Below are positions 40,927 through 42,777 of a stretch of 64,000 bases of DNA, in pieces; within the stretch, counting starts at the first letter, position 1, and the number at the start of each line of letters is the position of its first letter. The DNA is taken from positions 1-64,000 of the forward strand of contig JAIPGM010000004.1 of assembly GCA_021735655.1 (NCBI GenBank). The letters run 5' to 3'. Below the pieces are notes generated by a model. It had not been told where the DNA came from, did not search any database, and was given only the letters and a program-made list of their open reading frames with translations. The DNA is from Candidatus Omnitrophota bacterium (GTDB lineage: Bacteria > Omnitrophota > Gorgyraeia > Duberdicusellales > 4484-171). The position numbers and the translations under genes were made by a program.

Positions 40927-41916
40927 TTAGTTAATTCTTAATTTACCTAATTCCCTTTCTTCTATGGCTTCTGCCGCAAGACACTCTTCTTTATCAGCAG
41001 GTATCTTTATTTTTACCTTAATTTTTTTATCCTTAGTGGTATACCTAGCAACGATCTTAGCACAGATATCTTTAGCTTCACTATCTAAGCGTCCCCGGCC
41101 AATAGCTACCGGACCTGGCTCAGTCAGTGGTTCGAAGACAACGTCTTCCTTGCTGCAAATATTAACTAATCGATCGTTTTCTTTTTCATCTCGACCAACA
41201 GTTAAAGAAAAGTAAGGATTAATCCTAAAATATCTTCCAGTCTTTAAAAATTCAATATCTTTAATAGTAAATATATCATACTTAATTAAATCATTTAACC
41301 TTTTAGAGAAACCAGAATCAGTTAAAAGACAACCTCCGGCCGGACAGGGATAATCTTTTATTCCTAACTGAGCTGCTAACTTTATCTGCGGCTTTCTGGT
41401 TCTACCGGAAATTTCCAGCAAAGCCTCTCTATTAACCCAACCCTTATTTTCAGCCAAAGTCGGAGCGAAAAGTTTTGCTGAGAGCGGTCGTAAAATCAAA
41501 CCTTCCAAACCAGATTCCTTTTCAATTAAATTCAAAGCTTGGCGATGCTGCGACATTGGCCGCTGCCCGAGAACTTCCCCGGTGATAATAAAAGAAGCAC
41601 CTATTTCCTGCATAAAGGCTTTAGCTTTCTTAAGTTTTAAAATTCGACAATCTATACAAGGGTTAAGATTTTTACCATAACCATGCTTAGGATTTCTTAC
41701 AATTTCTAAATACTCATCCCCTAGGTACATTGACCTAAAGCTTGCCCCTAGCTCTTTCGCCCGTTGATCGATCACCGATCCACAACCTTCTCCTCGCTGA
41801 CAACGACAAAAAGGACTCATAAAATTTAAAGCAACTATCTCAATGCCCTGTTCCAAAATGACCTTAATCGCCAAGGTGCTGTCTAAGCCGCCAGAGAATA
41901 ATCCTACTGCTTTCAT
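40927..41916 (-). CDS. PP-loop ATP pyrophosphatase, ThiI-like core without THUMP domain, Cys-rich (putative Fe-S-dependent sulfurtransferase)
   Basis: N-terminal SGGLDS PP-loop. ThiI-like motif [13 protein letters not shown]. Cys clusters FCRC..GCG, NPCIDC and YPCPAGGC. C-terminal domain of about 130 aa with unknown function. Total length 329 aa. Confidence 0.55.
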
Positions 41917-41922
41917 TTTATT

Positions 41923-42777
41923 TTATAAACTTACCCAGTCCTCAGATACAATATTTCCTTTAATGCCTACCACTACACATTTCAACGGTACTTTTCTTTG
42001 GGCTTGGCCCAACCCTTCTTTTACTAAAGCCAAGAGACCACCACAGCAAGGAACCTCCATAATCATTACAGTTAAAGTATTGATTTTTGCCTCATCAGCC
42101 AAAATTTTTATCTTTTCTAAATAAACCTCTTTATTCGTATCTAATTTAGGGCAAGCAATAGCCAAAGATTTCCCAACTAGATATTTGGAATGAAAATTAC
42201 CCAAGGTATAAGCTACGCAATCAGCCGAAAGCAAAACATCTTTTCCCTGAAAATATGGCGCTCGGGGTGATACCAAATGTAATTGAAGCGGCCACTGCCT
42301 TAAAGCTGACGGTTGCTCTCCTGACACTTCTCCTATGTCTGGCTTATCAGAAAAATCCATCGTTCGCATCCCCGGACAACCCTGATGCGCCGCCACAAGC
42401 TTATCTTTAGCAACCGCAAAACCTTCAGGAATTTCTATGCCCTTTGTTTTTAACACTTCTAAGGCCTGTTTAAGGTATCCTCCTTCTCCGTGAACCTTCA
42501 AATGTTCAAGATGAGCTTTAATAGTACCTGCGCCTTGCTTTACAATATTCTCCATTACTTTTCTTTCGTCGTATTTTTCAGCTTCCCGTTCCTCAATGGT
42601 AATTGCATCTACCGGACAACTTCCGATACAAGCCCCTAGGCCATCACAAAAAAGATCACTAATCAAACGAACCTTTCCGTCAATAAGCTGTAAAGCCCCT
42701 TCGGGGCAATTAGGGATACAATCTCCGCAACCAGTGCATTTATCCAAATCAATTTTTATTATTTTTCTTTTTGACAT
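41923..42777 (-). CDS. 2x[4Fe-4S] ferredoxin-domain protein with Cys-containing C-terminal domain of unknown function
   Basis: CTGCGDCIPNCP and CDGLGACIGSCP ferredoxin motifs. C-terminal CPGM...CPKLD...VPCCGG cysteines. Length 284 aa. Confidence 0.55.
   Translation of the reverse strand: MSKRKIIKIDLDKCTGCGDCIPNCPEGALQLIDGKVRLISDLFCDGLGACIGSCPVDAITIEEREAEKYDERKVMENIVKQGAGTIKAHLEHLKVHGEGGYLKQALEVLKTKGIEIPEGFAVAKDKLVAAHQGCPGMRTMDFSDKPDIGEVSGEQPSALRQWPLQLHLVSPRAPYFQGKDVLLSADCVAYTLGNFHSKYLVGKSLAIACPKLDTNKEVYLEKIKILADEAKINTLTVMIMEVPCCGGLLALVKEGLGQAQRKVPLKCVVVGIKGNIVSEDWVSL

What the first reader, a model, noticed from the sequence alone, without database searches (positions are those of the whole stretch)
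40927..42777. Cys-rich THUMP-less ThiI-like PP-loop ATPase plus 2x[4Fe-4S] ferredoxin-domain protein inserted between metY and the Rrf2/sulfite-reductase genes
The PP-loop protein starts directly with SGGLDS, carries the ThiI signature ITGE.LGQ..SQ and has three Cys clusters. It therefore resembles Fe-S-dependent, sulfide-using thiolation enzymes (methanogen ThiI/TtuA type), not tRNA-binding ThiI. Its neighbour has two ferredoxin motifs plus a C-terminal CPxxD...PCCGG domain of unknown function. Both sit inside an operon that produces sulfide (APS reductase + alSiR) and consumes it (CysK, MetY). They could form a dedicated sulfide-activation or electron-delivery module, for example the Fd protein donating electrons to the small sulfite reductase, or the PP-loop enzyme making a thiocarboxylate or other S donor for MetY. 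I am not aware of this pairing being described.
Basis: partly seen in the sequence, partly recalled or inferred. Interest (0 to 1): 0.7.

Follow-up and report, generated by a model that had tools for sequence, protein, structure and literature searches.

The report
ThiI-type RNA thiolase plus FrdX-type ferredoxin
Two real genes in a sulfur-assimilation operon of an Omnitrophota bacterium belong to two families already described by bioinformatics, a predicted tRNA-thiolating enzyme and a ferredoxin usually found next to nitric-oxide-stress genes, and their pairing is confined to one lineage.

Summary

**Fd protein (284 aa).** It belongs to the PF27217 'AF_0155' family. In 80 loci this family sits next to Crp/Fnr regulators (21), Rrf2 regulators (17) and Hcp (16). 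That matches the hcpR/frdX-hcp arrangement. Its biochemistry is unknown.

**The pairing.** It is rare in general: 3 of 80 PP-loop loci and 2 of 80 Fd loci. In Omnitrophota, however, Rrf2-Fd-PP-loop heads three differently built sulfur operons. Across phyla the PP-loop gene recurs beside CysK, MetX/W, MnmA, Thi4 and NifS/U.

**Verdict.** New members of known families, with a modest new gene-context lead.

The parts
40927..41916 (-). ThiI-type PP-loop ATPase (residues 1-~225; SGGLDS 8-13; C87xxC90 + C196; GRTRKPQ 171-177) fused to a C-terminal NFACT-R_2 domain (227-323). Member of the ThiI+NFACT-R family and a predicted RNA (tRNA U8) sulfurtransferase.
41923..42777 (-). FrdX-type iron-sulfur protein. 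It has an N-terminal ferredoxin domain (one 4-Cys and one 3-Cys site), a helical linker with invariant H89/H92/H96, and a C-terminal PF27217 'AF_0155' domain with invariant C134, C187, C209, C244 and C245.
   Evidence: Pfam Fer4 families. PF27217 on the identical protein P0121. Alignment with 73% mean column identity across phyla. AF2 model. Best fold matches are beta-carbonic anhydrases, and they are weak. The domain family has 1695 representative clusters.
42795..43238 (-). Rrf2-family regulator, first gene of the unit. It has no 3-Cys cluster motif, and its best named match is CymR, below the family cutoff.
   Evidence: Pfam Rrf2 E 9e-34. NCBIfam CymR 135 bits against a cutoff of 195. Cys motif comparison.
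43289..43316 (-). Promoter-like site TTGACA-16-TAGAAT inside the 3' end of the sulfite reductase gene, directly upstream of Rrf2.
   Evidence: An 11/12 consensus match. A CTTGACAAA...TAnAAT element is conserved upstream of Rrf2 in L169, L084 and L170. This is a consensus match only, not proof of function.
43285..44013 (-). Small assimilatory-type sulfite reductase (242 aa).
   Evidence: Pfam NIR_SIR E 2.3e-31 and NIR_SIR_ferr E 1.4e-16.
44013..49003 (-). Siroheme/tetrapyrrole genes: CysG-N-like, HemA, HemC, CobA, HemB, HemL.
   Evidence: ORFs. Pfam families on the syntenic genes of L085, L086 and L169.
49016..49741 (-). CysH-type APS/PAPS reductase.
   Evidence: Pfam PAPS_reduct E 2.6e-40. NCBIfam PRK02090 171.6 bits against a cutoff of 154.
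39618..40913 (-). MetY, O-acetylhomoserine sulfhydrylase (homocysteine synthase).
   Evidence: NCBIfam PRK08248 733.9 bits against a cutoff of 726.
38674..39600 (-). CysK-type cysteine synthase.
   Evidence: ORF. PALP family on the syntenic genes.
36871..38596 (-). MetX (37454-38596) and MetW (36871-37461), homoserine O-acetyltransferase pair.
   Evidence: ORFs. Abhydrolase_1 and MetW families on the syntenic genes.

Best explanation
Operon structure. The two genes lie in a tightly packed minus-strand unit: Rrf2, Fd, PP-loop, metY, cysK, metX, metW. This unit follows a cysH, siroheme, sulfite reductase unit in an Omnitrophota genome.

The PP-loop protein.
- Shown: it is a member of the ThiI+NFACT-R family.
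- Inferred: its ThiI-type domain adenylates a uridine with ATP.
- Inferred: its CxxC+C cysteines hold a [4Fe-4S] cluster whose free iron carries sulfide, or sulfur from a persulfide or thiocarboxylate.
- Inferred: its NFACT-R domain replaces THUMP as the RNA-binding module.
- So it most likely makes 4-thiouridine in tRNA.
- It sits in the operon as one more consumer of reduced sulfur, co-regulated with CysK and MetY. It is not a sulfur activator for them.

The Fd protein.
- Shown: it is a member of the PF27217/FrdX-type family.
- Inferred: it carries two clusters in the ferredoxin domain and a third Cys-rich metal site in the C-terminal alpha/beta domain.
- Inferred: it works as a low-potential electron-transfer or reductase component.
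- Its ancestral context is an Fe-S-type Rrf2 or an HcpR regulator, together with Hcp.
- In this Omnitrophota lineage the Rrf2-Fd pair was recruited to the head of sulfur-assimilation operons.
- Its acceptor here is not identified.
For: PP-loop identity:
- Pfam ThiI plus NFACT-R_2.
- PDB profile hits to MnmA/ThiI over the N-terminal part and to RqcH over residues 236-304.
- AF2 model with pLDDT 89 and pTM 0.84.
- Invariant C87, C90, C196, G171-R172-x-R174-x-x-Q177 and R228/R231/R242. These match the family features listed in PMC4075521.
- The CxxC+C motif binds a [4Fe-4S] cluster and uses Na2S in M. maripaludis TtuI (PMC9825150).

Sulfur and thiolation context of the PP-loop family in 80 species-level loci:
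- CysK in 9, against 0 in the 80 Fd control loci (Fisher p = 0.003).
- LarE-like 9, MnmA 6, ThiF 5, Thi4 4, NifS 4, NifU 4, MetX/MetW 3.

Fd identity and context:
- PF27217.
- Neighbours in 80 loci: Crp/Fnr 21, Rrf2 17, Hcp 16, cupin 14.
- Roseburia plasmid: hcp, Crp/Fnr, 4Fe-4S binding protein.
- This matches hcpR/frdX-hcp (PMC545781, PMC1274295). A frdX knock-down in C. difficile is NO-sensitive (PMC12915319).

Conserved triad at the head of different sulfur operons:
- window, L085, L086, L169: after the sulfite reductase and before MetY-CysK-MetX-MetW.
- L084, L170: before CysK-HcyBio-NIL.
- L171: before CysH-Sat-PHO4-siroheme genes.

Own promoter-like element before Rrf2, conserved in L084 and L170.
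Against: - No member of either family has a demonstrated biochemical activity. The s4U role is a 2014 prediction.
- The mutual exclusivity with THUMP-ThiI that underlies that prediction could not be checked for this genome.
- TusA, the partner proposed in 2014, is absent from the window and present in only 4 of 80 PP-loop loci.
- Equivalence of this Fd with the named FrdX proteins rests on gene order and a 34%-identical Roseburia homologue. It does not rest on the sequence of a named FrdX.
- The triad persists through three operon rearrangements. This suggests a tighter functional tie between Fd and PP-loop than plain co-regulation.
Confidence: 0.55

Rival explanations
1. The pair is a dedicated sulfide-activation and electron-delivery module. 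The PP-loop enzyme makes a thiocarboxylate or other sulfur donor for MetY/CysK, and the Fd protein feeds electrons to the small sulfite reductase.
For: - The triad heads sulfur operons of three different compositions.
- CysK is enriched next to the PP-loop family.
- ThiF/MoeB-like, MoaD/ThiS-like, JAMM and TusA genes sit beside the PP-loop gene in L005, L028 and L034.
- The Fd gene lies one gene away from the sulfite reductase in the window.
Against: - The PP-loop protein carries a nucleic-acid-binding NFACT-R domain, and its closest structure is a tRNA s4U synthetase bound to RNA.
- 57 of 80 PP-loop loci have no sulfur-related neighbour.
- L084 and L170 keep the triad without an adjacent sulfite reductase.
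- The Fd family is linked to a sulfite-reductase-like gene in only 2 of 80 loci, against Hcp in 15-16.
Confidence: 0.12
2. The Fd protein is a redox partner of the PP-loop thiolase, or of Fe-S and persulfide chemistry in general. For example, it could reduce a persulfide or disulfide, or rebuild the catalytic cluster, so that the two genes form a true two-component thiolation system in these lineages.
For: - The two genes are adjacent, with a 6-nt gap in the window. Adjacency is kept through operon reshuffling in Omnitrophota.
- L096 has Thi4, PP-loop, Fd, permease, NifU, NifS, MnmA.
- L156 and L051 have both genes within a few kb.
- The Fd C-terminal domain has invariant Cys at strand ends, which fits a reactive metal/thiol site.
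Against: - Co-occurrence is 3 of 80 and 2 of 80 loci outside the clade.
- Cluster-dependent thiolation is a non-redox substitution (PMC9825150).
- Most PP-loop family members work without such a neighbour.
Confidence: 0.15
3. The Fd protein belongs functionally with the Rrf2 regulator, either as its first regulated target or as a redox/Fe-S status partner. It has no direct role in sulfur assimilation or thiolation, and its place in this operon only reflects inheritance of the Rrf2-Fd pair.
For: - Rrf2 lies directly upstream on the same strand in 17 of 65 loci with upstream flank, across phyla.
- Of the Rrf2 genes flagged adjacent to an Fd gene, those outside the Omnitrophota triad all carry the 3-Cys cluster motif.
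- Triad relatives L084, L170 and L171 keep that motif. The window, L085, L086 and L169 have lost it.
Against: - Many family members are instead paired with a Crp/Fnr regulator, or with no regulator.
- The C. difficile frdX knock-down has its own NO-sensitive phenotype (PMC12915319).
Confidence: 0.1

Closest known systems
ThiI+DUF814 (ThiI+NFACT-R) PP-loop family, predicted alternative tRNA 4-thiouridine synthase (Burroughs & Aravind 2014, PMC4075521)
   Same: - Same architecture: a ThiI-type PP-loop domain followed by NFACT-R_2, with no THUMP and no rhodanese domain.
- The CxxC + Cys motif, the GRxRxxQ motif and the conserved arginines in the NFACT-R part are all present.
- The phyletic spread seen here matches the paper: Deltaproteobacteria-type lineages, Nitrospirota, Planctomycetota, Thaumarchaeota and others.
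   Different: - The TusA neighbour proposed in the paper is absent here, and was found in only 4 of 80 loci.
- The linkage to CysK/MetX/MetW/MetY, MnmA, Thi4, NifS/U and an Rrf2 regulator was not reported there. The paper called TusA the only conserved association.
[4Fe-4S]-dependent TtuI/ThiI of Methanococcus maripaludis and Pyrococcus furiosus (PMC9825150)
   Same: - PP-loop catalytic domain with CXXC + C.
- The spacing from the PP-loop to CxxC is about 79 residues here, against about 80 in MmTtuI (my own recollection of MmTtuI residue numbering).
- No rhodanese domain.
- An anaerobe in which sulfide is the natural donor.
   Different: - It lacks the NFLD and THUMP domains that define TtuI and has NFACT-R instead.
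- It has additional conserved cysteines (C37, C39, C45, C191).
- Cluster binding has not been tested.
Thermotoga maritima ThiI (PDB 4kr6, s4U synthetase-RNA complex)
   Different: The T. maritima enzyme has NFLD-THUMP at its N-terminus. The window protein starts at the PP-loop and carries its RNA-binding domain at the C-terminus.
FrdX, the Hcp-associated 'hypothetical ferredoxin' of the HcpR regulon (PMC545781, PMC1274295, PMC12915319)
   Same: - The family of the window Fd protein shows the same gene arrangement: a Crp/Fnr regulator, the Fd gene and hcp.
- It has an N-terminal ferredoxin domain.
- Its biochemical function is unknown.
   Different: - In the window there is no Hcp and no Crp/Fnr regulator. 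The gene sits in a sulfur-amino-acid operon behind a Cys-less Rrf2.
- Sequence identity with a named FrdX was not verified directly.
CymR/CysK-type and Fe-S-type Rrf2 regulators
   Same: - The operon is headed by an Rrf2 protein whose best named match is CymR, the cysteine-metabolism regulator.
- It lacks the cluster-binding cysteines, as CymR does (the CymR comparison is my own knowledge).
   Different: - It scores 135 bits against the CymR cutoff of 195, so it is not a member by NCBI's threshold.
- Orthologues in L084, L170 and L171 still have the 3-Cys motif.

Membership tests
ThiI+NFACT-R (ThiI+DUF814) family | ThiI-type PP-loop domain with SGGxDS | tested here: met
   [not shown]
ThiI+NFACT-R (ThiI+DUF814) family | C-terminal NFACT-R_2 (DUF814-type) domain | tested here: met
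   [not shown]
ThiI+NFACT-R (ThiI+DUF814) family | No THUMP and no rhodanese domain | tested here: met
   No such Pfam or NCBIfam match. The protein starts 7 residues before the PP-loop.
ThiI+NFACT-R (ThiI+DUF814) family | Conserved CxxC, internal Cys, GRxRxxQ loop motif, conserved Arg in the NFACT-R part | tested here: met
   Invariant C87, C90, C196, G171, R172, R174, Q177, R228, R231 and R242 in 22 sequences.
ThiI+NFACT-R (ThiI+DUF814) family | TusA-like gene in the neighbourhood | tested here: not met
   No TusA-like ORF in the 64-kb window. Found in L005, L028, L038 and L075 among the 80 PP-loop loci. This is a contextual feature, not a defining one.
ThiI+NFACT-R (ThiI+DUF814) family | Genome lacks THUMP-type ThiI (mutual exclusivity) | not testable with these tools
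   Only 64 kb of the genome is available. No second ThiI-like ORF lies in the window.
ThiI+NFACT-R (ThiI+DUF814) family | tRNA 4-thiouridine synthase activity | not testable with these tools
   This is a prediction only in PMC4075521. No experimental paper was found.
[4Fe-4S]-dependent TtuI (archaeal ThiI) | CXXC + C motif in the PP-loop domain | tested here: met
   C87xxC90 and C196 are invariant. The motif is defined in PMC9825150.
[4Fe-4S]-dependent TtuI (archaeal ThiI) | N-terminal ferredoxin-like domain plus THUMP domain | tested here: not met
   Both are absent. TIGR00342 ThiI scores 42.9 bits against a cutoff of 264.5.
[4Fe-4S]-dependent TtuI (archaeal ThiI) | Binds a [4Fe-4S] cluster and uses sulfide | not testable with these tools
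   This needs anaerobic purification and spectroscopy.
   MnmA NF001138 25.8 bits against 284. TIGR00420 22.6 bits against 237. QueC TIGR00364 15.8 bits against 150.
PF27217 'AF_0155' / FrdX-type ferredoxin family | N-terminal 4Fe-4S ferredoxin domain | tested here: met
   Fer4, Fer4_10, Fer4_7 and Fer4_6 above their cutoffs. The second site has only three Cys.
PF27217 'AF_0155' / FrdX-type ferredoxin family | C-terminal AF_0155 domain | tested here: met
   PF27217 is precomputed for the identical protein P0121 and for all listed homologues. The local Pfam copy lacks this model. The domain alone finds 989 representative clusters at E <= 1e-10.
PF27217 'AF_0155' / FrdX-type ferredoxin family | Linkage to hcp and an HcpR- or NsrR-type regulator | tested here: not met
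   No Hcp and no Crp/Fnr regulator in the window. The Rrf2 upstream lacks the Fe-S motif. The linkage does hold for the family at large.
PF27217 'AF_0155' / FrdX-type ferredoxin family | Sequence identity with a protein named FrdX in the literature | not tested
   No FrdX sequence from Desulfovibrio or C. difficile was available. Equivalence is inferred from gene order.
CymR (for the Rrf2 gene) | Score above the NCBIfam equivalog cutoff | tested here: not met
   135.3 bits against a cutoff of 195. It is the best named match.

The most novel reading that the evidence does not exclude
Rrf2, the FrdX-type protein and the ThiI+NFACT-R enzyme form a three-gene sulfur-status and sulfur-delivery module.
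- The three-centre Fd protein would be a working redox partner of the cluster-dependent thiolase, or would generate or deliver reduced sulfur.
- Its beta-carbonic-anhydrase-like Cys-rich domain would be the active part.
- The module would couple RNA thiolation to cysteine and homocysteine synthesis in anaerobes that assimilate sulfide directly.
- This would give the unexplained FrdX family a function beyond Hcp.
- It would also explain why the triad survives three operon rearrangements.
Probability: 0.12. Interest if true: 0.7.

Novelty: new member of a known kind. Interest (0 to 1): 0.4.

Why it matters
Neither family has a demonstrated biochemical activity, yet both are widespread in anaerobes.

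- **Candidate for the first biochemical test.** The window provides a compact candidate (329 aa, confident model) for testing the 2014 prediction. That prediction says ThiI+NFACT-R enzymes make 4-thiouridine in the many lineages that lack THUMP-ThiI.
- **An unreported association.** This enzyme repeatedly sits in Rrf2-headed cysteine and methionine operons, beside other direct sulfide users (CysK, MetY, Thi4, MnmA). This hints that RNA thiolation is regulated together with sulfur supply.
- **A second context for FrdX.** The window gives the FrdX-type protein a sulfur-assimilation context besides nitrosative stress. This narrows guesses about what its Cys-rich domain does.

None of this overturns current understanding.

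Tried and rejected
- Literature search for 'AF_0155' returned only unrelated accession numbers from polyomavirus papers.
- The afdb50 fold library was not available.
- Rfam at gathering thresholds found no riboswitch or other RNA in the window, and ARAGORN found no tRNA. The operon therefore shows no S-box/SAM riboswitch at that threshold.
- One inverted-repeat search of the two promoter regions failed on a strand format error and was not repeated.
- I considered the Fd protein as a dedicated donor to the sulfite reductase and downgraded this, because L084 and L170 lack an adjacent sulfite reductase.
- I considered MnmA or QueC identity for the PP-loop protein and rejected both on scores.
- The plasmid database gave only three distant Fd homologues.
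Full report
**Observation**

The region 40927-42777 holds two adjacent minus-strand ORFs of 329 and 284 aa, 6 nt apart.
- In the 329-aa protein, SGGLDS lies at residues 8-13 and [14 protein letters not shown] at 110-123.
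- Its Cys groups are C37/C39/C45, C87/C90 and C191/C196.
- In the 284-aa protein there are two ferredoxin-type motifs plus ACPKLD and VPCCGG.

Identical proteins are on record from a Candidatus Omnitrophica MAG contig of 159,873 bp, and each query returned 8000 scored homologues, the candidate limit. These are real genes.

The gene order on the minus strand is as follows:
- DUF2061, CysH, six siroheme/tetrapyrrole genes, small sulfite reductase.
- Then Rrf2, Fd, PP-loop, MetY, CysK, MetX, MetW, with gaps of 6-17 nt from Rrf2 to CysK.

One correction concerns the Fd protein. Its second ferredoxin motif is C44-x5-C50-x3-C54P. The spacing is canonical, but Leu replaces the second cysteine. It is therefore a three-Cys site, not a standard second [4Fe-4S] motif. 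This is my inference.

**The PP-loop protein**

Pfam finds ThiI (E 6.5e-11) over residues 2-145.

MnmA, QueC and full-length ThiI models all score far below their cutoffs.

A profile of 22 homologues hits MnmA and ThiI structures with its N-terminal part, and RqcH with residues 236-304.

This is exactly the 'ThiI+DUF814' architecture that Burroughs and Aravind described in 2014 (PMC4075521).
- They reported that it is almost mutually exclusive with THUMP-ThiI.
- They reported that it keeps the ThiI CxxC and internal cysteine, has a GRxRxxQ loop motif, and has conserved arginines in the DUF814 part.
- They predicted it to be an alternative tRNA 4-thiouridine synthase.

All these sequence features are invariant in my alignment: C87, C90, C196, G171-R172-x-R174-x-x-Q177, and R228/R231/R242.

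In Methanococcus maripaludis and Pyrococcus furiosus TtuI, the CXXC+C motif binds a [4Fe-4S] cluster. That cluster is required for sulfide-dependent tRNA thiolation (PMC9825150).

The substrate, however, is most likely RNA. I found no experimental paper on this family.

**The Fd protein**

The identical database protein carries PF27217 'AF_0155' in addition to the Fer4 families. The local Pfam copy lacks that model.

The family is strikingly conserved. Mean column identity is 73% in 22 sequences from Omnitrophota, WOR-1, Kiritimatiellae, Nitrospirae, Fibrobacterota and Altiarchaeota. Besides the ferredoxin cysteines, these residues are invariant:
- H89, H92 and H96.
- C134 and H167.
- D186-C187 and H196.
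- C209, and C244-C245.

The C-terminal domain alone finds 1695 representative clusters at E <= 1e-3 and 989 at E <= 1e-10. It is nearly always C-terminal to a ferredoxin domain.

**What the Fd family sits next to**

I examined 80 metagenome loci, of which 65 have upstream flank and 49 have more than 1 kb downstream. The recurrent neighbours are:
- A divergent Crp/Fnr regulator in 21 loci.
- An Rrf2 regulator directly upstream in 17.
- Hcp directly downstream in 16.
- A small cupin in 14.
- A YgbA-like protein in 5.

In a WOR-1 genome the order is Rrf2, Fd, Hcp. On a Roseburia plasmid a 34%-identical homologue lies in the order hcp, Crp/Fnr, '4Fe-4S binding protein'.

This reproduces the hcpR/frdX-hcp arrangement described for Desulfovibrio and clostridia (PMC545781, PMC1274295). 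In C. difficile, knock-down of frdX gives NO sensitivity, and the authors state that its function remains unclear (PMC12915319).

I could not align the window protein with a protein explicitly named FrdX, so the equivalence is inferred from gene order.

**Is the pair a module?**

Broadly, no.
- Among 80 species-level genome loci holding the PP-loop gene, an Fd homologue lies within 8 kb in only 3 (L009, L022, L051).
- Among the 80 Fd loci, the PP-loop gene appears in 2 (L096, L156).

Within Omnitrophota, however, Rrf2-Fd-PP-loop is conserved at the head of three differently composed sulfur operons:
- Before MetY-CysK-MetX-MetW and after the sulfite reductase (window, L085, L086, L169).
- Before CysK-HcyBio-NIL/ferredoxin, with no adjacent sulfite reductase (L084, L170).
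- Before CysH, ATP sulfurylase, a PHO4 permease and siroheme genes (L171).

A promoter-like TTGACA-16-TAGAAT lies just before Rrf2 in the window. A similar element is conserved before Rrf2 in L169, L084 and L170. The triad probably starts its own transcript, although this rests on consensus matches only.

The Rrf2 proteins of L084, L170 and L171 keep a C-x6-7-C-x5-C motif. Of the Rrf2 genes flagged adjacent to an Fd gene, those outside the Omnitrophota triad all keep such a motif too. The proteins of the window, L085, L086 and L169 have lost every one of these cysteines. The best named match of the window Rrf2 is CymR, below its cutoff.

**What the PP-loop family sits next to**

In the 80 genome loci, 23 have at least one sulfur-related neighbour:
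- CysK in 9, against 0 in the 80 Fd control loci (Fisher p = 0.003).
- A LarE-like PP-loop gene in 9.
- MnmA in 6 and ThiF/MoeB-like in 5.
- Thi4, NifS and NifU in 4 each.
- MetX and MetW in 3.

Examples:
- Smithella (L029): Rrf2, MnmA, MetY, MetX, MetW, an unidentified 368-aa ORF, PP-loop.
- Planctomycetia (L023): CysK, MetX, MetW, Thi4, PP-loop.
- Poribacteria (L028): Rrf2, MoaD-like, ThiF, CysM, JAMM, DsrEFH, TusA, ThiF, PP-loop.
- L096: Thi4, PP-loop, Fd, permease, NifU, NifS, MnmA.

The 2014 paper called TusA the only conserved association. I found TusA in only 4 of 80 PP-loop loci and none in the window.

The common theme is enzymes that take reduced sulfur directly, together with other tRNA thiolases. 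This fits a sulfur-consuming RNA thiolase that is co-regulated with sulfur supply.

The window itself also carries a divergent thiE-thiS-thiG-thiH-thiF operon and NifS/NifU.

**Mechanism I commit to**

Shown:
- Family membership of both proteins.
- The domain architectures.
- The conserved residues.
- The gene contexts.

Inferred:
- The PP-loop enzyme adenylates a uridine in tRNA, most likely U8.
- It replaces the activated oxygen with sulfur held on the free iron of a CxxC+C-bound [4Fe-4S] cluster.
- Its NFACT-R domain positions the RNA.
- The Fd protein is a multi-centre, low-potential redox protein inherited together with an Rrf2 regulator. Its acceptor in this operon is unknown.

I give this overall reading a confidence of 0.55.

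A true Fd/PP-loop two-component thiolation system gets 0.15. An Fd role tied only to the regulator gets 0.10.

**Novelty and score**

Both proteins are new members of families already defined by comparative genomics. The domains are catalogued, but the pairing in sulfur operons is not described in what I could search.

Two parts are new and modest:
- The conserved Omnitrophota triad.
- The cross-phylum linkage of ThiI+NFACT-R to cysteine and methionine genes.

Interest: 0.4.

Noticed in passing
window 50211-53559 (+): A complete thiazole/thiamin operon runs divergently from the DUF2061-cysH operon. It comprises thiE (50211-50924), thiS (50908-51108, 66 aa ending in GG), thiG, thiH and thiF. 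ThiS/ThiF could supply a thiocarboxylate sulfur donor.
   Followed up: partly
window 22503-24301 (-): NifU-like (22503-23111) and NifS-like cysteine desulfurase (23111-24301) genes lie about 17 kb from the PP-loop gene. They are a possible persulfide source for thiolation.
   Followed up: no
window 42795-43238 (-); L084, L170, L171, L085, L086, L169: The Rrf2 regulator of the triad keeps a 3-Cys Fe-S motif in L084, L170 and L171. It has lost all of these cysteines in the window, L085, L086 and L169, which are exactly the loci with the MetY-type operon.
   Followed up: partly
window 43236-43345 (-); L169, L084, L170: A conserved promoter-like CTTGACAAA...TAnAAT lies upstream of Rrf2 across loci. 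It is followed by a conserved element around GTAGTGATT, which is a candidate operator.
   Followed up: partly
window 32254-33617 (-) and 33631-36111 (-): A secreted DUF1573 protein with two rhodanese domains and a small YHS-type protein lie next to a copper-type P-type ATPase. RND/OEP efflux genes lie further downstream, at lower coordinates. In L085, L086 and L169, YHS-domain and copper-repressor-family genes likewise follow MetW.
   Followed up: no
L028 2304-8996; L005 508-9225: Two elaborate sulfur-carrier clusters lie next to the PP-loop gene. Poribacteria (L028): Rrf2, MoaD/CysO-like, ThiF, CysM, JAMM, DsrE, DsrF, DsrH, TusA, ThiF, PP-loop. L005: sulfite reductase, ThiS::CysK fusion, TusA, ThrC-like, MoaD::ThiF fusion, NIL, PP-loop, ThiS-like.
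   Followed up: partly
L084 10289-11652; L170 9177-10784: In two Omnitrophota genomes the triad is followed by CysK and the HcyBio (COG1900) plus NIL-ferredoxin homocysteine pathway, instead of MetX/MetW/MetY. In L084 the NIL gene is called as only 49 aa, without its ferredoxin part.
   Followed up: no
[not shown]
   Followed up: partly
L009, L012, L019, L021, L024, L031, L040, L046: In Thermodesulfobacteriota-type genomes a LarE-like PP-loop gene lies immediately downstream of, or close to, the ThiI+NFACT-R gene.
   Followed up: no
L116, L119, L126, L128, L132, L137: In six Fd loci the gene downstream encodes a roughly 1400-aa protein that begins with BcrAD/HgdC-type ATPase-like repeats (judged by eye from the sequence). 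A histidine kinase lies upstream. This is a third recurrent context for the Fd family.
   Followed up: no
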